Source: a virus
Taxonomy: Duplodnaviria > Heunggongvirae > Uroviricota > Caudoviricetes
DNA length: 64,000 nucleotides
Virus record (IMG/VR): IMGVR_UViG_3300029705_000018
Reading direction: 5' to 3' (one strand)
The notes below the pieces were generated by a model that saw only the letters and a list, made by a program, of their open reading frames with translations, made no database searches and had not been told where the DNA came from. The stretch's first letter is position 1, and each line of letters begins with the position of its first letter. Shown here piece by piece: positions 9,094-16,516 of this stretch. Position numbers and translations under genes: made by a program.

Positions 9094-9169
9094 GGTGGGC
9101 CAGGGCGGGATTGAACCGCCGACACGTGGATTTTCAGTCCACTGCTACTACCTGCTGAGCTACCGGCCC
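9094..9169 (-). tRNA. tRNA-Phe (anticodon GAA)
   Basis: Reverse complement GGGCCGG TA GCTCAGCAGGTAGTAGC A GTGGA-CTGAAAA-TCCAC G TGTC GGCGGTTCAATCCCGCC CTGGCCC A CCA. Confidence 0.7.
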
Positions 9170-9193
9170 ATATACAAGACACATTGTTTGTTT

Positions 9194-9266
9194 TGCAAAA
9201 TGTTGGACTCGAACCAACGACCTATTGTTTATCAGACAATTGCTCACCCATCTGAGCTAATCTCGC
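9194..9266 (-). tRNA. tRNA-Ile (anticodon GAT), second copy; acceptor has two G.U pairs and no encoded CCA
   Basis: Reverse complement GCGAGAT TA GCTCAGATGGGTGAGC A ATTGT-CTGATAA-ACAAT AGGTC GTTGGTTCGAGTCCAAC ATTTTGC A. Confidence 0.5.
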
Positions 9267-9332
9267 TACAAAGCTATTTGCTGTGAGTGTCTTTATGAAC
9301 ACAAACGAAAGGAGAATCATTATGATTCTGGT

Positions 9333-9403
9333 TGCGTGGGGTCGGACTCGAACCGACAATCTCTAGCTTATGAGGCTAGTGAGTTACCATTTCTCTACCC
9401 CGC
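9333..9403 (-). tRNA. tRNA with anticodon CAT (Met, fMet or Ile2); acceptor has two mismatches
   Basis: Reverse complement GCGGGGT AG AGAAATGGTAACTC A CTAGC-CTCATAA-GCTAG AGATT GTCGGTTCGAGTCCGAC CCCACGC A. Confidence 0.45.
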
Positions 9404-9406
9404 AAT

Positions 9407-9478
9407 GGGTGCAGCCGGAGGATTCGAACCTCGTATCCAGGTTATGAGCCTAGTGTCCTACCATTAGACGACCACTGC
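9407..9478 (-). tRNA. tRNA with anticodon CAT (second of three)
   Basis: Reverse complement GCAGTGG TC GTCT-AATGGTAG-GGAC A CTAGG-CTCATAA-CCTGG ATAC GAGGTTCGAATCCTC CGGCTGC A. There are mismatches in the T and acceptor stems. Confidence 0.4.
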
Positions 9479-9650
9479 AATATCTAAGGGGGAGTTTTTT
9501 CCGGTCGGAGCCCCCACGACCGCACATGAAAGGAAATGAACCGCAAAGTAGCGGGTGGCAAAGCGGAGAATATTTTATCGCAACAGTTTGCAACCCATTT
9601 TGAGAACTTCTCTTTGGCTATCCAGTACCAACGCGTATGACTGGCGCTTC

Positions 9651-9726
9651 TGGTCCCTCGAGCTGGACTCGAACCAGCGACATCCCGGGTATGAACCGAG
9701 TGCTCTACCAGCTGAGCTATCGAGGG
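9651..9726 (-). tRNA. tRNA with anticodon CAT (third; cleanest cloverleaf)
   Basis: Reverse complement CCCTCGA TA GCTCAGCTGGTAGAGC A CTCGG-TTCATAC-CCGGG ATGTC GCTGGTTCGAGTCCAGC TCGAGGG A CCA. Confidence 0.65.
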
Positions 9727-9922
9727 ATATTGACTAGGTACAGTCCTGCGTTTCCTGTTTTAAGCCTGACTAACTATTCTAAGGGGGCAGTCCCTTGAAT
9801 TCCAAAAATCCAGGAGCCTAGTCATCTGGTAAGTAGAGAAACTGTTCTTGAAACCTCATGCATTTTTTACAAGGCTTTCAGTTTTTTATAGTCCGGACTG
9901 GGTTAGCTCAATCCCTCTACAA

Positions 9923-9999
<77 letters not shown>

Positions 10000-10166
10000 A
10001 AATAAATGATGTTGGACAGCTATCCTTTAATATGCTCTTAAGCCCTAGGGTCATATCAACACCCAAAGCAGTTTCACCACCAAAACTTGCTACTTAAAAA
10101 AGCGATTCTTTCGTCTCCTCTTCCACGCCCAGGTTTTCCGCTACGAGGTACTGGGAACATACCTTA

Positions 10167-10242
10167 TGGCAGCTTCGACGGGGATCGAACCCGCGATCTT
10201 CAGTGTGACAGACTGACGAGCACTCCACTGCTCCACGAAGCT
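10167..10242 (-). tRNA. tRNA-Asp (anticodon GTC), second copy with a different body
   Basis: Reverse complement AGCTTCG TG GAGCAGTGGAGTGCTC G TCAGT-CTGTCAC-ACTGA AGATC GCGGGTTCGATCCCCGT CGAAGCT G CCA. Confidence 0.6.
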
Positions 10243-10391
10243 ATATTAGTAAGTTTACTTTGCTTCCTTATATAGCGTTTTCCACTAAGCCACATATCTA
10301 AGGCATCAGTATTGCTCTGCGTATCCCTAGCCGGTGGTAGTTTAACTTACAAATCCATGTTAACGCTTTTACATAAAGCGGCCAAGCCGCA

Positions 10392-10467
10392 TGGTGACCC
10401 CGCCGGGATTCGAACCCGGATTATCGGCGTGAGAGGCCGACCTCCTAAACCGTTAGAGGACGGGGCC
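10392..10467 (-). tRNA. tRNA-Glu (anticodon CTC)
   Basis: Reverse complement GGCCCCG TC CTCTAACGGTTTAGGAGG TCGGC-CTCTCAC-GCCGA TAATC CGGGTTCGAATCCCGG CGGGGTC A CCA. Confidence 0.65.
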
Positions 10468-10742
10468 ATATGTGGCGCCGGTTGCCAGCGCCTTTGGGTG
10501 GACCAGGGTCTTTCGACCAGCCCAGGATTGCAGATGATATTCGCGACTATCATTTTAACGGGCCTGCTCATTTGTTTTTCTCGCCCGGTTGGTTATAGGT
10601 AACACTCTTAAACCACCGCTTTACGTCCCTTACTCGTGCTGCGGCCGCACGCAACCTGTATTTCTTAGCCCAGTTTAGGCAAAGGTTTCGCCCCGGTATT
10701 TCCAGTTTTTTCTGGTTTTCCTTCTCCTGGTGGCTTACCATC

Positions 10743-10819
10743 TGGTGATCCCACGGAGGCTCGAACTCCGATTTCCACCTTGAAAGGGTGGTGTCCTATG
10801 CCGGTTAGACGATGGGACC
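10743..10819 (-). tRNA. tRNA-Glu (anticodon TTC)
   Basis: Reverse complement GGTCCCA TC GTCTAACCGGCATAGGAC A CCACC-CTTTCAA-GGTGG AAATC GGAGTTCGAGCCTCC GTGGGATC A CCA. Confidence 0.7.
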
Positions 10820-11129
10820 ATTATTCTTCATAAAGATAACGAGGGTCTTCCATAGCATCATTCCATCCCTGGATTTCTGCCAGTTCATCAGATTGAATCT
10901 GAGTAGTGAAATCATCAAACATATTTCATTTACCTCTCTTTCTTTATCTTACATAAATATTATAACATATTTTTTTATAAAAATCAAGAAAGATTTTTTA
11001 GTTAGAATTGGCGCTAGCAACCAATATTGACGGCATCTTAGGTACCGACGCATAATGAAGACCATGCATTGAAGCCTACAACTGTTGTACTCGCACCGTT
11101 GTCGCGCCTGGTGTATTCTTGTCGATCCC

Positions 11130-11390
11130 ACCTAGGAACCAGGCTCACCGTGAGCCAATGGTGGATCATATCGGATTCGAACCGATCTGATATCCTGTCT
11201 GCCAGACAGGTGGCCACCCCAAGCAGCCCCATAACCCATATAAAAGTGATTTTCAAGCAACGAGTAAAATCACAACCCCGTTGCGGCCAGTAGAGTTGTC
11301 AGCGGTACTCTGCCCATGGCGCTTCCCCGTAAGTACTAGGTCTTTAACTTATACCCGCAGTGACGGTACCTACTCAAACATCTGCGGTGC
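11130..11390 (-). other. ORF-free structured region with a tRNA 3'-half-like element (T-arm plus CCACCA at ~11161-11200) and no matching 5' half
   Basis: ATCGG-TTCGAAT-CCGAT ATGATCC A CCA on the minus strand. Upstream there is a perfect 7-bp hairpin CCTGTCTGGCAGACAGG but no pairing 5' acceptor strand. The six-frame ORFs here (11038..11256, 11069..11293, 11281..11493) overlap each other and the tRNA-like element, and are probably spurious. Confidence 0.3.
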
Positions 11391-11393
11391 TGG

Positions 11394-11477
11394 TGGGGAT
11401 AGTGGGACTCGAACCCACACGACCTCTCGGCCATCAGATTTTGAGTCTGACACGTCTACCGATTCCATCATATCCCC
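11394..11477 (-). tRNA. tRNA-Leu (anticodon CAA), class II
   Basis: Reverse complement GGGGATA TG ATGGAATCGGTAGACGTG TCAGA-CTCAAAA-TCTGA plus long variable arm TGGCCGAGAGGTCGTGT, GGGTTCGAGTCCC ACTATCCCC A CCA. Confidence 0.65.
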
Positions 11478-11867
11478 ATGTGGCGGATTTTGATCCGAAT
11501 TCCGCGAACTCTCATTCAAGAAAAACGCATTTCAGGGTGTGCACCCCCATCCGCAGCATCACGGGTCCGGTTTCCATTTCTGGCTGAAGCCGATAACAAA
11601 TAAATTACCCTCTATTCTTAGCACCCGATGTGGGCCGTTTGCCTCTCTCGGCGGGCAACCTGCGAAAGTGTTTCTGGTTGACACATAACCTCCCAGTTTC
11701 GTTCAGAAGTTTTAGTTTTAGTCCAAACTTCTAAGCCAACACCCCTGCGAAAAATACTTGTAAATGACCAAACAACTTTAAGCCCAGTTTATAACAGAGT
11801 TATTGTCGTTATCCATAATCATAATAATAACCCCTCACCGGATAACTGGTTATAAAAAAACCGGAGA

Positions 11868-11937
11868 TTTCCCATACTGGATTCGAACCAGTATCACACC
11901 TATTACTTCGTGCGTTCTGCCATTAAACTAATGGGAC
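11868..11937 (-). other. tRNA-like gene with a disrupted anticodon stem (possible pseudogene)
   Basis: Acceptor GTCCCAT/ATGGGAA, D-arm and T-arm (ACTGG-TTCGAAT-CCAGT) fold well. The anticodon region GCACGAAGTAATAGGTGTG cannot form a 5-bp stem. Confidence 0.3.
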
Positions 11938-11952
11938 TTTCATCTACATATG

Positions 11953-12021
11953 TGTTCCTTATGGGACTCGAACCCACATCTCTTGCCCTCAAGCCATTCT
12001 CCCTACTTAAACTAAAGGAAC
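11953..12021 (-). other. tRNA-like gene of 69 nt with a perfect acceptor and T-arm but a 4-bp/4-nt anticodon hairpin (possible pseudogene)
   Basis: Reverse complement GTTCCTT TA ... CTTG-AGGG-CAAG ... GTGGG-TTCGAGT-CCCAT AAGGAAC A. Confidence 0.3.
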
Positions 12022-12023
12022 TA

Positions 12024-12100
12024 TGGTGGACCCAACCGGATTCGAACCGGTAACCCCCTGCTTGCAAGGCAGGCGCTCTCCCAGTTGGAGCTATGAGCCC
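12024..12100 (-). tRNA. tRNA-Ala (anticodon TGC) with the G3.U70 identity pair
   Basis: Reverse complement GGGCTCA TA GCTCCAACTGGGAGAGC G CCTGC-CTTGCAA-GCAGG GGGTT ACCGGTTCGAATCCGGT TGGGTCC A CCA. Confidence 0.75.
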
Positions 12101-12200
12101 AAATATCGCAACTTATTTATGTTCTGATGGAGTTGCCAACCACCCAGACTTTCAATTAGTAGCCGATAATCTAAAAGAACTGCTCGGTTCCACGAGCGTG

Positions 12201-12286
12201 TGGTGAGGATAGAGGGACTCGAACCCGTCACCCCTTGCGGGACCGGAGCCTAAATCCGGCGCGTCTACCAATTCCGCCATATCCCC
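12201..12286 (-). tRNA. tRNA-Leu (anticodon TAG), class II
   Basis: Reverse complement GGGGATA TG GCGGAATTGGTAGACGCG CCGGA-TTTAGGC-TCCGG plus long variable arm TCCCGCAAGGGGTG, ACGGGTTCGAGTCCCTC TATCCTC A CCA. Confidence 0.7.
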
Positions 12287-12456
12287 AAATGAGTGCCCCA
12301 CGAGTTTTATTATACTCTCGACTCTGGGGCCGTAATTGAGAGTGCCATGGCTTATATTTACGAGAAACTACATGGCTGAAACCTCGGTGGTCCATATTTA
12401 GGGAGTACCACAGGCCCGAGTATTATTTTTTGAAAAGGTCTTAATACTTGACCTCT

Positions 12457-12532
12457 TGGCGAACGGTGAGGGACTTGAACCCCCGACAGGTAGGTTAACA
12501 GCCTACTGCTCTACCGACTGAGCTAACCGTCC
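12457..12532 (-). tRNA. tRNA-Asn (anticodon GTT)
   Basis: Reverse complement GGACGGT TA GCTCAGTCGGTAGAGC A GTAGG-CTGTTAA-CCTAC C TGTC GGGGGTTCAAGTCCCTC ACCGTTC G CCA. Confidence 0.7.
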
Positions 12533-12785
12533 ATATGTGTTGTAAGGTGAGAACATGACAGTGAGTCGATATACTATCAGCTATTCTTCCCATTCCGTGA
12601 GAGGTTCTCAAAATACATTTTTCTGCCGATGTTCCTCGCCCCAGGACTTCGCTGATAGACGGCCTGGGCACTTCACAAAGGGATACTCTTTGTATTTCCT
12701 TTACCTTACATATATATTATAACATATTTTTTTTTGAAAATCAAATATGTTATATTTACTTAGCTTCAAGACGGAGTTTTTTCGA

Positions 12786-12816
12786 TCTTACGCTGCTCTA
12801 CCAATCTAAGCTACAC
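12786..12816 (-). other. 5' tRNA fragment (acceptor plus D-arm only; His/Gly-like GGGTGTAGCTTAGATTGGTAGAGC)
   Basis: Matches the first ~25 nt of the tRNAs at 6518..6595 and 6754..6829, but no anticodon arm or T-arm follows. Probably a truncated duplicate. Confidence 0.3.
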
Positions 12817-12874
12817 CCTTCATATCAGGGAACCGAAGTTCCCCTTAGTAGTCACCTACGCCACCTTGCCAGGT

Positions 12875-12915
12875 GAGGGAAGGGTGGTTGGACTCGAACC
12901 AACGACCTGCGGCAC
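12875..12915 (-). other. tRNA 3'-half-like fragment (GTTGG-TTCGAGT-CCAAC plus CACCCTT tail)
   Basis: Canonical T-arm on the minus strand with no complementary 5' acceptor. Confidence 0.25.
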
Positions 12916-13061
12916 CACAAGCTAATCTTTGAATCGCTGTTACCGTCTTTTATGGAAAAGGTTGTGTATGGAGAAAGAAAGTGAACCGTGCATTTCGCTT
13001 TCTTTACCTTACATATATATTATAACATATTTTTTTTTGAAAGTCAAAAAGAATTTTTGAC

Positions 13062-13433
13062 TTAGATTTCAGAGGCTCTTGCCTGAGTCTCTTCCTCTTC
13101 TTCCAAAATAAAGGAATGCTGCTCATATTCCTTAGATTCCAGGAAACTCTCTTCTACGATGCGTTCATTAGCGCCCTCGCCAGTAGTGACCAAACCCTTG
13201 GGGAACTCACCACCGAAGATTTCTTCGGAGAGATCAACCCAGGTGCCATAGGGATAGATAGCCTGGTCCACGTAACCCTCGGACAGCTCGCAGACCTCGT
13301 CGATATCATAAACACCGCCGCAACAGGCGCAGATGATAGTGTCGCCAAAAGCGATACCGGTAATCCAAGAGCCGGGTTCATCAATGTCATGGAACATGAC
13401 CTGAGTAGGAGTATCAAAATGAGGCTTGTTCAT
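13062..13433 (-). CDS. hypothetical acidic protein
   Basis: ORF of 123 aa. Conserved promoter copy at 13455-13515. Confidence 0.5.
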   Translation of the reverse strand: MNKPHFDTPTQVMFHDIDEPGSWITGIAFGDTIICACCGGVYDIDEVCELSEGYVDQAIYPYGTWVDLSEEIFGGEFPKGLVTTGEGANERIVEESFLESKEYEQHSFILEEEEETQARASEI

Positions 13434-13530
13434 AGTATCATTTCCTTTCTCAATCGTCTTTCTTTATCTTACATAAATATTATAACATATTTTTTTATAA
13501 AAATCAAGAAAGATTTTTTATCTAATTTTG

Positions 13531-13605
13531 TGGCAGGGCGACTAGGATTCGAACCTAGATACACAGTTTTGGAGACTGTAGTCCTAGCCGTTGAACGATC
13601 ACCCT
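13531..13605 (-). tRNA. tRNA-Trp (anticodon CCA)
   Basis: Reverse complement AGGGTGA TC GTTCAACGGCTAGGAC T ACAGT-CTCCAAA-ACTGT G TATC TAGGTTCGAATCCTA GTCGCCCT G CCA. Close to a canonical bacterial tRNA-Trp, with G73. Confidence 0.7.
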
Positions 13606-13968
13606 GTATTTCGTGCGGGCGTCCCCGCACTATCCGAGTCTTCAAGATTAGATGGCGTAAATCTCGGCTTCCATCTGAGCCTGCTTGACGAGTTGAGCCC
13701 ACCAAGCATTCATCATCTTCTGGATCTTCTTCATTGAGAAAAACCCCCTTTTTCAATTTTATTTGGGAGGCAATGGGATATCGGCACTACCTCCAAAACT
13801 CAATTTACGAGTTTGATTTTCTCTAAAATATTTTAGATTCATAAGATAATCTCTTATCTTGTATATATATTATAACAAATTTTTTATAAAAAATCAAATT
13901 TGTCACAATTAGCGAAGTAATATTTTTGAAAAGTCTGTGAGATAAATTGGGCGTTTCCGCCCAAAGTA

Positions 13969-14283
13969 TCACAGACCGAGACGCCGCATCAAATCATTGA
14001 CGCGCTCTCTTTCCTCAGTAGTAATTTCTGCTGGCTGGAATGCTCCGGCCGCAACCACTACATTAGGAGCATCATCTTCAAAGTTGAAATCTCCAGTAGT
14101 GGGATTATCAGAAATTGCCACAGGAACCTTAGGACAGGTCAAAGACAGTGCAATTTGAATTCGCTCACCGTTTTCTGTCGCCCACACATACAGTTTTTTG
14201 TCGTAAGTTCCAATGAAATCAGAACCGAACGCTTCTTTTATTTTTTGTTCCACATTATTTTTTGCAATTTGCCCACGAGCCAT
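13969..14283 (-). CDS. hypothetical protein
   Basis: ORF of 104 aa. Promoter copy at ~13845-13900 (which would drive 13469..13756; the real gene there is doubtful). Oriented with its neighbours. Confidence 0.45.
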   Translation of the reverse strand: MARGQIAKNNVEQKIKEAFGSDFIGTYDKKLYVWATENGERIQIALSLTCPKVPVAISDNPTTGDFNFEDDAPNVVVAAGAFQPAEITTEERERVNDLMRRLGL

Positions 14284-14296
14284 ATAAATTCTCCTT

Positions 14297-15019
14297 TTAC
14301 ACTAAAAATGTTTCTCCAAAAATCATTTCATAATTCATATTATCATATTCCCAATATGGAATTCGAACCAATGGAATATTATTTATAATAGCATAATTAT
14401 TTTTTTCTGCATCTGATGCTTGAGTACGAGACAATTTACTACGCTCCCAATTACTTTCATGATAATGTTGTTCACCATCATACTCAACTAGACGAATAAT
14501 TTTATTACTATTATCTAAAATGGCAAAATCAAAGCGTTTTTGACCTAAATTTTCTGGTTTATATTCTCTAATATAAGAAATATGATATTCTTCTAAAATA
14601 TCAATAATTTTTTGTTCACCTTTTGAAATCCTAGAAAAACATCCACAGCTAGTTGTATTACCAGTTCGTAAGTCTGATCCACTAATTGATTTTATATTAC
14701 CACATTCACATTTACAAATCCATTTTATACGACCAAAATTATCCCTTTCTGAGTCCATCTCAAGAACAGTAAGTTTACCGTAAACATTACCTTTTTCATC
14801 TTTAGCTAATGCTTCAAAAACTTTTTCATTTCTCAAGCAACCACAACTTTTCGTTGCTCCATTTTTGAGACTTAAACCAGCAATGGTTTTTATATTACCA
14901 CATTCACATTTACAATCCCAGTATGGTCGTTTATGTCGTTTTGATGCTTCTATATTTTTTGATAAAACAGTAAGTCTATGATAGGTATTACCAACAAGAT
15001 TTTCACCAGTTTTTGGCAT
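14297..15019 (-). CDS. double zinc-ribbon protein with a C-terminal PD-(D/E)XK-like nuclease-type domain (paralog of 18768..19520)
   Basis: Two repeats of the type CKCECGNIK...SCGC. The C-terminus ...RFDFAILDNSNKIIRLVEYDGEQHY... shares the F-DF...IEYDG-QHY motif with the small gene at 53213..53569. Confidence 0.5.
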   Translation of the reverse strand: MPKTGENLVGNTYHRLTVLSKNIEASKRHKRPYWDCKCECGNIKTIAGLSLKNGATKSCGCLRNEKVFEALAKDEKGNVYGKLTVLEMDSERDNFGRIKWICKCECGNIKSISGSDLRTGNTTSCGCFSRISKGEQKIIDILEEYHISYIREYKPENLGQKRFDFAILDNSNKIIRLVEYDGEQHYHESNWERSKLSRTQASDAEKNNYAIINNIPLVRIPYWEYDNMNYEMIFGETFLV

Positions 15020-15094
15020 AAAAATATCACTCTCCTTCTATCTTTTATGATTTTTCAGATAAAAAGATTGAAAATTTTTACCCAGAACTTTTTA

Positions 15095-16516
15095 TCAAAA
15101 ATATTTTTTATTCCTTCCGCCTTCATTCCTATTTTCGTAGCAATGAGGACATAAATATGTTTCAGTTTCTTCACAGTAAATCTTATCTGAGTTGTAATAT
15201 ATGTAATCACACTCTTCGCAGCGGAAACACTCTGTGTCATAACACTGTTGACAGATCAATTCTTCATTATCTCCAGCCACATATGCATCATCCACATACA
15301 TACGACGACCGCAACAAGCGCAATGAGTATAATTTTCATTCTCTTCTACGCCATATGCCAACTCGCAATTATCACATCGCATTGTTTCTGAATTATCTAC
15401 CCAGTCTTTGCCGCAATGTAGACAAGGCACAGAACCGCCCACTACAATGGGCTTTTCAATCAACTTTCTTACACCGCTTCGGCTCAAAGTATTATTGAAA
15501 ATCGCATAATAAGGATAGCGATAACAAGTAGAACGAAGAATGTCATTATAATTACGAGCATATCTGCCTTCTACAACTACCTCTTGGAGTGGAGCTAAGA
15601 ATCCGTTGACGATTACATACTGACAATTTAATGCCCGAGGATTGTCCTCAGGATTAGCATCATGCGGGACATAACTGTCGATATAGTCATCTTTCCAGTT
15701 GAAATACTTATAATAGCCGAATGGATGTTCTTGTTGAATCAGATTATTATAAATATTCAGTACGGTATCAATTCCACTTTTAGAGCTAAATGGATACTGG
15801 CGTCCCGCAAACATGATAGTGCTGTCTTCATGCTCATGAATCAACATACGCCACTTCTTAGAGTTCCACTTTACAGAACCAAAGTTAGGAAGTTCTGCTT
15901 CATCCATGCCTTTGAGATAAACCATAAAGGTAGTGCGGTCAGTCATATAACTCAGATTACCAGCACGATATTCTCCATCGAGGGCATGGCAACTGCGCCA
16001 GTTATATGTGTTCTCGCTACTGGACAGAAAATCCAAAGGATGAACTGAAAAACATAACTTACCCTTGATTTTATTCTCTTGGATAAGCTGGCTCGCTGCG
16101 TCCTGAATATTTCTCAGGGTTATGGGATTATGTTCAAAATACTTAAATGCCTTCAGTAGCTTCATTCCCTTTGGAATGTCACTACCTTCACATACATTTA
16201 CAACTTTATTTTCAAAAAATCCATCCAGATTTTCATCAATAAACTCAGCCAAAACAGGATTATTGAAAGTATCATAAACCTGGGTAGCAAAATCAGCTGC
16301 CCGACATCTCTTTTCCTTTTCATCCAAAGTAAATTCAATGGGTTCCGGCCATTCATAAATCAAACCGCCGAATCTCTCAATAAACTTTTCCTTGGCAAGC
16401 TCCCAGTCGTGGAATAGAGCATCCACCTGGGGATCGGGAATTGATTGAGAATAACGAATTACTTCGCAGAACTGTTCTTTGATTCTGTCGATTTCTCGCA
16501 TATTACCTCCGCACAA
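15095..16516 (-). CDS. large protein of unknown function with C-terminal multi-CxxC zinc-ribbon cluster (paralog A)
   Basis: 473 aa. Shares the blocks KGKLCFSVHPLDFLSSSENTYNWRSC, WRMLIH and GRQYPF with 20122..21717. The last ~110 aa contain at least 8 CxxC pairs. Confidence 0.55.
   Translation of the reverse strand: MCGGNMREIDRIKEQFCEVIRYSQSIPDPQVDALFHDWELAKEKFIERFGGLIYEWPEPIEFTLDEKEKRCRAADFATQVYDTFNNPVLAEFIDENLDGFFENKVVNVCEGSDIPKGMKLLKAFKYFEHNPITLRNIQDAASQLIQENKIKGKLCFSVHPLDFLSSSENTYNWRSCHALDGEYRAGNLSYMTDRTTFMVYLKGMDEAELPNFGSVKWNSKKWRMLIHEHEDSTIMFAGRQYPFSSKSGIDTVLNIYNNLIQQEHPFGYYKYFNWKDDYIDSYVPHDANPEDNPRALNCQYVIVNGFLAPLQEVVVEGRYARNYNDILRSTCYRYPYYAIFNNTLSRSGVRKLIEKPIVVGGSVPCLHCGKDWVDNSETMRCDNCELAYGVEENENYTHCACCGRRMYVDDAYVAGDNEELICQQCYDTECFRCEECDYIYYNSDKIYCEETETYLCPHCYENRNEGGRNKKYF

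What the first reader, a model, noticed from the sequence alone, without database searches (positions are those of the whole stretch)
11130..11860. Second ORF-poor structured stretch between tRNAs, with an orphan tRNA 3' half
About 700 bp between tRNA-Glu(TTC) and the tRNA-like gene at 11868. It has only short overlapping ORFs on both strands. It contains a perfect T-arm plus ATGATCC-A-CCA acceptor tail (11161-11200) with no 5' partner. A complete tRNA-Leu(CAA) lies at 11394..11477, and GC-rich hairpins follow. It could be a split or permuted tRNA, an intron-containing tRNA, or another structured RNA.
Basis: seen in the sequence. Interest (0 to 1): 0.5.

Follow-up and report, generated by a model that had tools for sequence, protein, structure and literature searches.

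The report
New structured RNAs between phage tRNAs
The "orphan tRNA half" is a complete alanine tRNA, and the long gaps around the neighbouring leucine tRNA hold two conserved, folded, non-coding RNAs that match no described family; one of them sits directly in front of the same leucine tRNA in a large family of animal-gut phages.

Summary
All features lie on the minus strand, inside one phage tRNA operon.

The "orphan 3' half" is a complete tRNA-Ala(GGC) at 11237..11159. It has a 7-bp acceptor stem with G3:U70 and a 7-nt variable loop.

tRNA-Leu(CAA) at 11477..11391 is confirmed, and the interval holds no credible gene.

**Element A (11769..11524, about 245 nt).** It is a closing helix around seven hairpins.
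- A covariance model finds one full-length copy in each of 17 distinct related contigs, about 10 lineages.
- 92% of pair cells are paired, against 37-49% in shifted controls.
- 25 of 47 pairs show double compensatory changes.
- It always lies 1-6 or 40-48 nt upstream of tRNA-Leu(CAA).

**Element B (11390..11238, 153 nt).**
- It varies about as little as the flanking tRNAs.
- Its folded model has four compensatory pairs, all from one diverged homolog.
- Two overlapping 3' helices exist; one is terminator-like.

**Known families.** Neither element matches any Rfam 15 family. No relatives were found in IMG/VR or GenBank phages.

**Best reading.** These are new structured RNAs co-transcribed with the tRNAs and released by tRNA processing. 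A is coupled to tRNA-Leu(CAA). Function is unknown.

The same array also carries ROOL, a YrlA-like Y RNA and a DUF3800-XI motif.

The parts
11159..11237 (-). Complete tRNA-Ala(GGC). Layout: acceptor GGGUUAU/AUGAUCC with G3:U70, D stem GGCU/GGCC, anticodon stem CCUGU/ACAGG, loop CUGGCAG, 7-nt variable loop AUAUCAG, T stem AUCGG/CCGAU, discriminator A and an encoded CCA.
   Evidence: ARAGORN. Called in the relatives that carry it. Compensatory changes in the anticodon and T stems. 82.7% identical to tRNA-Ala of phage Astolliot. Below the Rfam tRNA threshold.
11238..11390 (-). Element B, a 153-nt conserved non-coding RNA that starts right after the CCA of tRNA-Leu(CAA).

Model:
- Long hairpin 11373-11362 / 11342-11329.
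- Candidate pseudoknot CCGCAG 11387-11382 with CUGCGG 11360-11355.
- Middle domain 11320-11315 / 11290-11286, enclosing hairpin 11311-11307 / 11296-11292.
- Helix S1 11284-11277 / 11264-11257.
- Overlapping helix S2 11273-11266 / 11253-11246, followed by UUUU at 11245-11242.
   Evidence: Few variable sites among the nine window-like sequences. Diverged homolog in L028: 125 bits by nhmmer, 169 bits by CM. 43 pairs are 99.7% paired, with 4 double changes against 0 in slid controls. S1 is -11.6 and S2 is -5.5 kcal/mol.
11391..11477 (-). tRNA-Leu(CAA), a class II tRNA with a long variable arm and an encoded CCA. It is the constant 3' neighbour of element A.
   Evidence: ARAGORN and Rfam, 57.6 bits. 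An A homolog lies directly upstream of tRNA-Leu(CAA) in all 17 distinct sequences.
11483..11505 (-). Optional hairpin He (GCGG...CCGC) between element A and tRNA-Leu. It is present in window, L012, L014, L017, L023, L028, L086 and L087, and absent in L006, L015, L016, L030, L036, L025, L010, L029 and L083.
   Evidence: Read from the alignment and sequences. It explains the two classes of A-to-tRNA distance, 1-6 nt and 40-48 nt.
11524..11769 (-). Element A core, about 245 nt.

Helices (5' strand / 3' strand):
- Closing helix P1: 11768-11762 / 11532-11527.
- Pa: 11749-11745 / 11696-11692, enclosing H1 at 11734-11725 / 11712-11703 (loop begins GGAC).
- H2: 11684-11681 / 11671-11668.
- Hc: 11658-11654 / 11643-11639.
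- H3: 11635-11632 / 11626-11623.
- Hd: 11592-11588 / 11572-11568 (loop motif CCRGAAR).
- H6: 11564-11561 / 11554-11551 (loop GAUGCU).
- H7: 11548-11544 / 11539-11535 (loop UGCA).

Conserved unpaired motifs: GGUUAU, GCUAAAAUAGAGGG, AAAUGCG.
   Evidence: CM R1. 17 full-length hits at 65-271 bits, one per locus. 92.4% of cells paired against 37-49% when slid; 25 of 47 pairs with changes on both sides; 0 of 500 shuffles reach the observed values. A naive MAFFT plus RNAalifold run already gave 10 compensatory pairs. Frameshifting indels among relatives.
11770..11867 (-). A+T-rich, variable 5' extension (A0) between the tRNA-like element and the A core. By eye it has a hairpin CCGG...CCGG and a helix GGGUUAU...AUAACUC, with counterparts in L006, L023, L083, L086 and L087. 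It is absent in L025, L028 and L029.
   Evidence: Sequences. No consensus structure came out of MAFFT plus RNAalifold, so this part is weakly supported.
11868..11937 (-). tRNA-like element at the 5' flank of A0/A. It has a cloverleaf acceptor, D arm and T arm. The anticodon arm is a 4-bp stem with a conserved 10-nt loop GRAGUAAUAG, and there is no encoded CCA. It is a likely processing signal for the 5' side of element A.
   Evidence: Rfam tRNA 40.8 bits; not called by ARAGORN. Acceptor, T-stem and anticodon-stem covariation read in L006, L083 and L087.
12716..12744 (-). Promoter of the transcription unit that contains the interval (TTGATT-17-TATAAT with an extended TG). It belongs to a nine-copy phage promoter family.
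   Evidence: No other promoter copy lies between it and 10987.
10959..10987 (-). Next copy of the same promoter. It drives the 33-aa ORF 10922..10821 and tRNA-Glu, and so marks the 3' limit of the unit.
   Evidence: The 64-nt copy at 10937-11000 is identical to the one at 13457-13520.
10990..11158 (-). Spacer C downstream of tRNA-Ala(GGC). It is lineage-specific: window and L012 share one version, and L006, L014, L015, L016 and L017 carry an unrelated, shorter one. It is not part of the conserved elements.
   Evidence: Alignment; folding z-score -0.23.

Best explanation
The interval is part of one polycistronic phage tRNA transcript on the minus strand, running from the promoter at 12744-12716 towards the next promoter at 10987. 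Between ordinary tRNAs it carries two non-coding RNAs that are under selection for their fold.

**Element A**
- It is a discrete domain of about 245 nt, closed by a terminal helix, with seven hairpins and several invariant unpaired motifs.
- It is genetically fused to tRNA-Leu(CAA).
- I infer that its 3' end is made by RNase P cleavage at the 5' end of that tRNA.
- I infer that its 5' side is set by 3' processing of the upstream tRNA-like element. A would then be released as a stable RNA of 250-390 nt, or persist as a 5' extension of pre-tRNA-Leu.

**Element B**
- It is a 153-nt RNA released in the same way between tRNA-Leu and tRNA-Ala(GGC).
- Its 3' end can form either an 8-bp helix or an overlapping terminator-like hairpin with a U tract. 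This could gate read-through into the next tRNA.

**Shown:** conservation, covariation, strand, non-coding nature, the constant A-to-tRNA-Leu(CAA) adjacency, and the absence of a match to known families.

**Inferred:** expression, processing sites, stability and any function. The function is most likely tied to tRNA-Leu(CAA) supply or use during infection.
For: **tRNAs and transcription unit**
- tRNAs.
- Repeated promoters bracket a single unit.
- In L029 the same promoter directly precedes tRNA-like, then A, then tRNA-Leu(CAA).

**Element A**
- CM hits in 17 distinct sequences, including four not used to build the model (L036 245.6, L086 153.9, L083 112.1, L087 65.3 bits).
- 25 of 47 pairs with double changes; 92.4% paired against 37-49% when slid; 0 of 500 shuffles.
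- Helices with entirely different sequences in different lineages. Pa reads CGUAG/CUACG, UAUCAUU/AAUGAUA, UGUAAAGUU/AACUUUACA and ACUUUUCUUA/UAAGAAAAGU.
- G-U pairs fix the strand, for example U-G in 17 of 17 sequences in H6.
- Frameshifting indels rule out coding.
- The gap to tRNA-Leu +1 is 1-6 nt or 40-48 nt in every lineage.
- The neighbours on both outer sides change between lineages.

**Element B**
- Few variable sites in the window-like clade, where the A core varies far more.
- Four compensatory pairs and no disruptive change within stems except one pair.
- Energies of the two alternative helices.
Against: - There are no expression data of any kind.
- Folding energies are no better than shuffles.
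- The alignment used for the pair counts was fitted to the model.
- P1 has no double compensatory change; it shows only G-U variants and some mismatches.
- B's helices rest on one diverged sequence, L028. B is absent from L023, L025, L083, L086, L087, L010 and L029.
- S2 has only two G-C pairs and was not called by the terminator scan.
- The constant adjacency of A and tRNA-Leu could reflect shared descent with little recombination, rather than functional coupling.
- Nine of the 17 sequences belong to one clade.
Confidence: 0.6

Rival explanations
1. Element A is a cis-regulatory leader, such as a riboswitch, attenuator or sensor of a tRNA or protein. It would control transcription, processing or stability of tRNA-Leu(CAA) and the downstream tRNAs rather than act as a released RNA. 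Element B would be a second such switch for the next tRNA.
For: - Strict placement immediately 5' of tRNA-Leu(CAA).
- Many invariant unpaired nucleotides, as in aptamers.
- B has two overlapping helices, each with one compensatory change. One is a hairpin followed by UUUU, 8 nt before tRNA-Ala.
Against: - A has no terminator or alternative-pairing platform.
- The optional He hairpin lacks a U tract in the window and is absent in about half of the lineages.
- No T-box or other riboswitch model matches.
- S2 is weak, at -5.5 kcal/mol.
- I know of no precedent for a riboswitch in front of a tRNA gene (own knowledge).
Confidence: 0.2
2. The spacers are conserved only because the block was recently exchanged among related phages. 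On this view it is hitch-hiking or a recombination mosaic, the hairpins are incidental, and the sequences have no function of their own.
For: - Among window-like contigs the block 11770..11158 is far more similar than the flanking coding DNA, which is 77% identical between window and L006.
- MFE z-scores are unremarkable.
Against: - Distant lineages keep the same helices with different sequences.
- Conservation is uneven within the block: A0 and spacer C are replaced, while the A core and B are kept.
- In the A core, indels and many substitutions fall in loops; in B, substitutions fall in loops and linkers.
Confidence: 0.04
3. The interval encodes one or more small proteins on either strand.
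For: ORFs of 41-75 aa exist on both strands.
Against: - The longer ORFs overlap tRNA genes.
- Relatives differ by 1- and 2-nt indels inside the ORFs at 11559-11688.
- There are no PHROG matches.
- No gene is called there in any related contig.
Confidence: 0.02
4. One reading: a split, permuted or intron-containing tRNA, or a group I intron, occupies the interval.
For: - T-arm-like sequences occur in the array outside called tRNAs.
- A permuted tRNA-shaped RNA does exist 1 kb upstream.
Against: - The 'orphan half' is a contiguous complete tRNA-Ala(GGC).
- No tRNA-half, permuted tmRNA or intron model scores significantly in A or B.
- The A and B sequences contain no T-loop motif.
Confidence: 0.02
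5. The conserved sequences act at the DNA level, for example as protein-binding sites, an origin, or homing-endonuclease targets in a tRNA array rich in GIY-YIG and PD-(D/E)XK genes.
For: Homing-endonuclease-type genes (GIY-YIG, PDDEXK_5) sit in the arrays of relatives, and array content is mosaic.
Against: - Compensatory changes that include G-U pairs are strand-specific and indicate RNA pairing.
- DNA sites would not keep helices while their sequence changes.
Confidence: 0.03

Closest known systems
ROOL and GOLLD RNAs, the large ornate RNAs of phages and prophages
   Same: - Structured non-coding RNAs of unknown function, encoded in phages, typically next to tRNA genes or 'tRNA islands' (PMC5737381; PMC12286853).
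- GOLLD can carry tRNAs in its linker (PMC12286853).
- A ROOL copy lies in the same array of this window, at 2984-3609(-), 323 bits.
   Different: - Element A is much smaller: about 245 nt against about 580 and over 800 nt.
- It has no sequence or covariance-model similarity to either.
- It has a fixed partner tRNA, Leu-CAA.
- Oligomer or cage formation is untested here.
Bacteriophage T4 species 1 and species 2 stable RNAs (rnaC, rnaD)
   Same: From my own knowledge, not checked in the library: small stable RNAs of unknown function, encoded inside the T4 tRNA gene cluster, co-transcribed with the tRNAs and cut out of the same precursors by the tRNA-processing enzymes. This is the mode of biogenesis I propose for A and B.
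   Different: - No sequence relation could be tested, because there is no Rfam model hit.
- The T4 RNAs are about 120-140 nt and, as far as I know, are not tied to one tRNA species.
- Expression of A and B is not shown.
tRNA-operon spacer RNAs with a function of their own, such as E. coli 3'ETS-leuZ
   Same: From my own knowledge: pieces of tRNA precursors outside the mature tRNAs can be functional RNAs released by processing.
   Different: - Those act by short base-pairing as sRNA sponges and are not elaborate folds.
- A and B are defined by conserved multi-helix structure.
YrlA / bacterial Y RNAs
   Same: tRNA-related structured RNAs encoded by phages and bacteria (PMC4201824). One YrlA-like RNA lies in the same array at 12763-12931(-).
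   Different: - A and B have no tRNA-like module and no YrlA model match beyond chance.
- No Pfam family, and so no Ro60/TROVE domain, was found for the ten largest ORFs checked.
T-box and other riboswitch leaders
   Same: A long, structured, conserved 5' leader with invariant unpaired nucleotides. B has two mutually overlapping helices, one followed by a U tract.
   Different: - Riboswitch leaders sit upstream of protein-coding genes.
- A has no expression platform.
- No riboswitch model matches.

Membership tests
Canonical elongator tRNA (for 11159-11237) | Contiguous cloverleaf with a 7-bp acceptor stem, D arm, anticodon arm and T arm, and a 7-nt anticodon loop | tested here: met
   ARAGORN calls tRNA-Ala(GGC) at 11159-11237(-). 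The arms were read directly from the sequence.
Canonical elongator tRNA (for 11159-11237) | Score at or above the Rfam RF00005 gathering threshold (29 bits) | tested here: not met
   Absent from the gathering-level list. The best clan hit is tRNA-Sec at 21.5 bits, E 0.22. The 7-nt variable loop and G8 are atypical.
Canonical elongator tRNA (for 11159-11237) | Alanine identity pair G3:U70, and stems maintained by compensatory change in relatives | tested here: met
   GGGUUAU/AUGAUCC gives G3:U70. The anticodon stem changes C-G to U-A in L006 and L014, and the T stem changes A-U to G-C in L014.
Split or circularly permuted tRNA | The 3' half is separated from, or precedes, its 5' half | tested here: not met
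   Both halves are contiguous and in normal order. The nearby permuted tRNA-shaped RNA is at 12763-12931, outside the interval.
Group I intron or intron-containing tRNA | Match to the intron covariance model, or a tRNA interrupted in the anticodon loop | tested here: not met
   No intron family at E<=10 in 10800-12100. Both tRNAs are uninterrupted.
ROOL (RF03087) / GOLLD | Match to the family covariance model | tested here: not met
   ROOL matches only 2984-3609. There is no ROOL or GOLLD hit in the interval or in the A and B homologs of L028 and L029 at permissive E-values.
Riboswitch or T-box leader | Conserved aptamer plus an expression platform with mutually exclusive terminator and antiterminator helices | tested here: inconclusive
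   - A: no platform was found.
- B: helices S1 and S2 overlap topologically, and each has one compensatory change.
- S2 plus UUUU is weak, at -5.5 kcal/mol, and was not called by the terminator scan.
- No riboswitch model matches.
Stable RNAs processed out of phage tRNA precursors (T4 species 1/2 type) | Co-transcription with tRNAs and excision by RNase P and 3'-processing enzymes into a stable species | not testable with these tools
   Only the layout is shown: same strand, no internal promoter or strong terminator, and tRNA or tRNA-like elements on both sides.
Structured RNA family in the general sense (Rfam-type criteria) | Homologs in several lineages, with base pairs supported by covariation | tested here: met
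   - Element A: 17 sequences and 25 of 47 pairs with double changes; the controls fail to reach the observed values.
- Element B: only marginally met, with 4 pairs from a single diverged homolog.

The most novel reading that the evidence does not exclude
Element A is a new class of functional RNA that works together with its covalently linked tRNA-Leu(CAA). Possibilities are:
- a catalytic or ligand-binding domain;
- a self-assembling particle in the manner of ROOL and GOLLD;
- a decoy or shield that protects or controls this tRNA against a host tRNA-targeting defence.

Element B would then be a genuine conformational switch that gates transcription of a tRNA gene, which would be an unusual target for a riboswitch-like element.
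Probability: 0.2. Interest if true: 0.85.

Novelty: new variant of a known kind. Interest (0 to 1): 0.6.

Why it matters
Phage tRNA arrays are usually annotated as tRNAs plus junk spacers. This one array holds at least five kinds of non-tRNA structured RNA:
- ROOL
- a YrlA-like Y RNA
- a DUF3800-XI motif
- element A
- element B

Element A adds a compact, covariation-supported RNA class of about 245 nt with a fixed tRNA partner. It occurs in a very abundant but uncultured family of roughly 200-kb animal-gut phages. A conserved protein from near this array has 2370 homologs.

The A-tRNA-Leu unit is small and has clear boundaries. That makes it a tractable object for probing, cryo-EM and RNase P assays. 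It may also help with the old question of what the stable non-tRNA RNAs of phage tRNA clusters are for.

For annotation, the result shows that a tRNA with a 7-nt variable loop can be misread as a fragment.

Tried and rejected
**Searches that found no relatives or no match**
- Thermodynamic test of the three spacers: no signal.
- Exact-pattern scans of IMG/VR with window-specific, clade-invariant and lineage-general patterns: 0 hits.
- Protein-anchored scans of IMG/VR: no relatives.
- blastn and tblastn against GenBank phages: only tRNA hits and a remote Enterococcus phage protein.
- Metagenome pattern scan: 4 loci, 3 of them useful.
- Genome (GTDB) scan: 52 hits, of which only L036 is real.

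**Structure work that led nowhere**
- MAFFT plus RNAalifold on the A0 extension: no consensus structure.
- CM search for remote B homologs in other lineages: none.

**Ideas considered and dropped, by reading the sequences only**
- *RNase P-RNA-like core.* CAGAA and CGGCUU strings occur, but are not conserved across lineages.
- *tmRNA or two-piece tmRNA.* ARAGORN makes no call, and Rfam scores are insignificant.
- *T-box-type specifier and UGGN pairing.* The candidate UUG lies inside a stem in L086.
- *Ribosome-binding-site mimic.* Not conserved.
- *Kissing between the UGCA and GAUGCU loops.* Cannot be tested with these tools.
Full report
**1. What is at the coordinates**

The window carries a dense tRNA array on the minus strand from 1033 to 13605. 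ARAGORN finds 31 tRNAs, and Rfam adds a ROOL RNA at 2984-3609.

Within 11130-11860 ARAGORN calls two complete tRNAs:
- tRNA-Ala(GGC) at 11237..11159
- tRNA-Leu(CAA) at 11477..11391

Its 5' acceptor strand GGGUUAT lies at 11237..11231 and pairs fully, including G3:U70.

The gene is atypical, with a 7-nt variable loop and G at position 8. It falls below the Rfam tRNA threshold, which explains why it was misread.

It is nevertheless a real gene:
- It is called in the relatives that carry it.
- Its anticodon and T stems show compensatory changes.
- It resembles an annotated phage tRNA-Ala.

ORFs in the interval are short. The longer ones overlap the tRNAs, and none has a PHROG match.

**2. Transcription context**

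A 50-60-nt promoter family occurs nine times on the minus strand in 1-16000. Its form is TTGAYTTTT..., a 17-nt spacer, then TG-n-TATAAT.

Copies at 12744-12716 and 10987-10959 bracket the interval. No copy and no strong terminator lies in between.

The order on the transcript is therefore:
- promoter
- tRNA-Asn
- tRNA-Leu(TAG)
- tRNA-Ala(TGC)
- two tRNA-like elements (12021-11953 and 11937-11868; Rfam 38.6 and 40.8 bits, with odd anticodon arms)
- a 390-nt spacer
- tRNA-Leu(CAA)
- a 153-nt spacer
- tRNA-Ala(GGC)
- a 170-nt spacer
- the next promoter

**3. Getting relatives**

IMG/VR and GenBank phages hold nothing related.

Exact-protein look-ups found several sets of contigs:
- Contigs identical to the window in this region: L001-L005.
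- Diverged relatives of 84-95% identity: L006, L012, L014-L017.
- Much more distant lineages: L010, L023, L025, L083, L086, L087.

Pattern scans added L028, L029, L030 and L036.

The phages have contigs of about 190-207 kb and come from animal-gut metagenomes; contig names include yak caecum and pig. A conserved 468-aa protein has 2370 homologs, and the 33-aa ORF next to the interval is indexed in 314 blocks.

**4. Element A (11769..11524)**

Conservation along the 390-nt spacer is uneven among close relatives:
- The A+T-rich first ~95 nt vary and carry indels.
- The next ~245 nt are well conserved.
- The last ~45 nt are present or absent as a block.

Relatives differ by 1- and 2-nt indels inside the only ORFs, so the region does not code.

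Distant lineages keep the same set of helices with different sequences:

| Helix | Variants seen (5' strand / 3' strand) |
|---|---|
| Pa | CGCAG/CUGCG; CGUAG/CUACG; UAUCAUU/AAUGAUA; UAUGAAU/AUUCAUA; GUCUUU/AAAGAC; UGUAAAGUU/AACUUUACA; ACUUUUCUUA/UAAGAAAAGU |
| H2 | GUGU/ACAC; GCGU/ACGC; GUGCG/CGCAC; AUACGU/ACGUAU |
| Hc | UUGCC/GGCAA; UUGUC/GACGA; CGGUA/UACCG; GAUUUUUU/AAAAAAUC |
| Hd | CGGUU/AACCG; GCAACU/AGUUGC; UGGUUU/AAACCA; GACAAC/GUUGUC |
| H6 | C-N-G-U [GAUGCU] G-C-N'-G, with N:N' = C:G, A:U or U:A |
| H7 | GGG-R-N [UGCA] N'-R-CCC, with N:N' = G:C, C:G or U:A |

A naive MAFFT plus RNAalifold run already found 10 compensatory pairs.

A covariance model built with my structure has 247 positions and 47 pairs. 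It gives the following results:
- It finds exactly one full-length hit in each of 17 distinct loci, at 65-271 bits. Four of these were not used for building.
- It finds no second copy in the window.
- On the model-fitted alignment 92.4% of cells are paired, against 37-49% when partners are slid.
- 25 of 47 pairs have changes on both sides.
- None of 500 shuffles reaches the observed values.

Frequent G-U pairs place the RNA on the tRNA strand.

P1, the closing helix (G(U)CAUUU / AAAUGC), is conserved but has no double compensatory change. H3 shows only single-side changes (G-U, G-C and A-U at its closing pair).

Invariant unpaired motifs are GGUUAU, GCUAAAAUAGAGGG, CCRGAAR in the Hd loop (with a similar CCAGAAA-like string in the H2 loop), GAUGCU, UGCA and AAAUGCG.

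**5. Linkage to tRNA-Leu(CAA)**

In all 17 sequences the A core ends either 1-6 nt or 40-48 nt before position +1 of tRNA-Leu(CAA). The longer class contains an extra hairpin, GCGG...CCGC.

Everything else varies:
- *Upstream neighbour:* one of two kinds of tRNA-like element, with or without the A0 extension. In L029 a promoter directly precedes the tRNA-like element. In L025 a tRNA 3' half lies behind a PD-(D/E)XK gene.
- *Downstream of tRNA-Leu(CAA):* element B, tRNA-Leu(AAG), tRNA-Leu(CAG), tRNA-Asn, tRNA-Glu or a promoter.

**6. Element B (11390..11238)**

Few sites vary among the nine window-like sequences, and they fall in predicted loops and linkers. This is about as little variation as in the flanking tRNAs and much less than in the A core.

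One diverged homolog exists, in L028. There it follows tRNA-Leu(AAG) and precedes tRNA-Leu(CAG). None was found in the other lineages.

L028 differs at about 16% of positions. Every change inside a proposed stem but one (U-A to U·C at the loop end of the small hairpin 11311-11307 / 11296-11292) is compensated:
- two pairs in the long hairpin
- one pair in S1
- one pair in S2

The slid controls give zero such pairs.

S1 (11284-11277 / 11264-11257, -11.6 kcal/mol) and S2 (11273-11266 / 11253-11246, -5.5 kcal/mol, followed by UUUUAUAU and then tRNA-Ala) interleave with 3-nt linkers. From general pseudoknot geometry, that is too short for both to be complete at once. The alternatives are a partial pseudoknot or two alternative states.

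A second possible pseudoknot, CCGCAG with CUGCGG, is invariant and so untested.

**7. Not a known family**

Rfam 15 at E<=10 gives nothing for A or B in the window, L028 or L029.

The literature held here describes ROOL and GOLLD near tRNA islands (PMC5737381, PMC12286853). It also includes large catalogues of candidate phage RNAs built from IMG/VR (PMC10690425). IMG/VR lacks this phage family in my scans. I cannot exclude that an unnamed catalogue entry covers A.

**8. How it most likely works**

Shown:
- A is a conserved, strand-specific RNA fold inside a tRNA operon, and its bond to tRNA-Leu(CAA) is fixed.
- B is as conserved as the flanking tRNAs, but its fold has only thin support.

Inferred:
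- The tRNA-processing enzymes define the ends. RNase P would cut at tRNA-Leu +1 and tRNA-Ala +1, and 3' trimming would follow the tRNA-like element and tRNA-Leu.
- A and B would then accumulate as discrete RNAs, as T4 species 1 and 2 RNAs do (own knowledge).

My probabilities:
- About 0.9 that A is a functional structured RNA.
- About 0.7 that B is one.
- About 0.6 for the processing-and-release model.
- About 0.2 for a purely cis-regulatory role.

The conserved linkage with one tRNA species suggests a function connected with tRNA-Leu(CAA). No tool here can test that.

**9. Verdict**

The interval holds an ordinary, if atypical, tRNA-Ala, a normal tRNA-Leu and two undescribed structured RNAs. 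The main caveats are the absence of expression data, a limited number of independent lineages (about 10), a model-fitted alignment, and thin support for B.

Noticed in passing
window 12763-12931 (-): - A tRNA-shaped RNA in permuted order: the T arm and 3' acceptor strand come first, then a conserved structured insert of about 55-60 nt, then the 5' acceptor strand and D arm.
- Rfam YrlA (Y RNA-like) scores 43.7 bits, E 1e-8, which is below the gathering score of 69.
- The two acceptor strands covary across relatives: GAAGGGUG/CACCCUUC, GCGGAGA/UCUCCGC and GGGGGAG/CUCCCUC.
- No Pfam family, so no Ro60/TROVE domain, was found for the ten largest ORFs checked.
   Followed up: partly
window 11868-11937 (-): - A tRNA-like element with normal acceptor, D and T arms.
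- Its anticodon arm is a 4-bp stem that covaries (GCAC/GUGU, GCUC/GAGU, CCC/GGG), with a conserved 10-nt loop GRAGUAAUAG.
- There is no encoded CCA.
- It is conserved in L006, L083 and L087.
- The loop contains UAA-UAG, and some relatives encode a release-factor-like protein (PCRF/RF-1).
   Followed up: partly
window 11953-12021 (-): A second tRNA-like element (Rfam 38.6 bits). Its 'anticodon' loop has only 4 nt in the window. The homologous gene is called tRNA-Pro(TGG) in L006, L015, L016, L017 and L023, tRNA-Pro(AGG) in L028, and tRNA-His(GTG) in L083 and L086.
   Followed up: no
window 2984-3609 (-): A full-length ROOL RNA (323 bits) lies inside the same tRNA array.
   Followed up: no
window 10489-10524 (-); L023 13548-13599: A DUF3800-XI RNA motif scores above the Rfam threshold, placed after tRNA-Glu(CTC) in the window and before it in L023.
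   Followed up: no
window 1170-13898 (-), nine copies, e.g. 10933-10988, 12690-12745, 12993-13048, 13453-13508: A repeated phage promoter family of about 55 nt (TTGAYTTTT, 17-nt spacer, TG-n-TATAAT, then ATATATGTAAGRTAAAG). The copies at 10937-11000 and 13457-13520 are identical over 64 nt.
   Followed up: partly
window 10821-10922 (-): A 33-aa ORF (MFDDFTTQIQSDELAEIQGWNDAMEDPRYLYEE) with a good ribosome-binding site lies behind a promoter copy. The exact protein is indexed in 314 blocks of the assembly collection. It has no family match.
   Followed up: partly
L023 12700-12820 and L025 11068-11170: A different conserved spacer element lies downstream of tRNA-Leu(CAA) in two distant lineages. 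It reads ...CAAGAUGGGAGGAAACGAGCAGAGAGUUCUCACCACCC...GCGGCAAAGAAUUCGUAACCGCACUUGUAGUAGGU and is unrelated to element B.
   Followed up: no
L025 10682-10733: A tRNA 3' half ending in CCA lies directly after a PD-(D/E)XK endonuclease gene (10247-10681) and 7 nt before the A core. It may be a tRNA gene interrupted by a mobile endonuclease gene.
   Followed up: no
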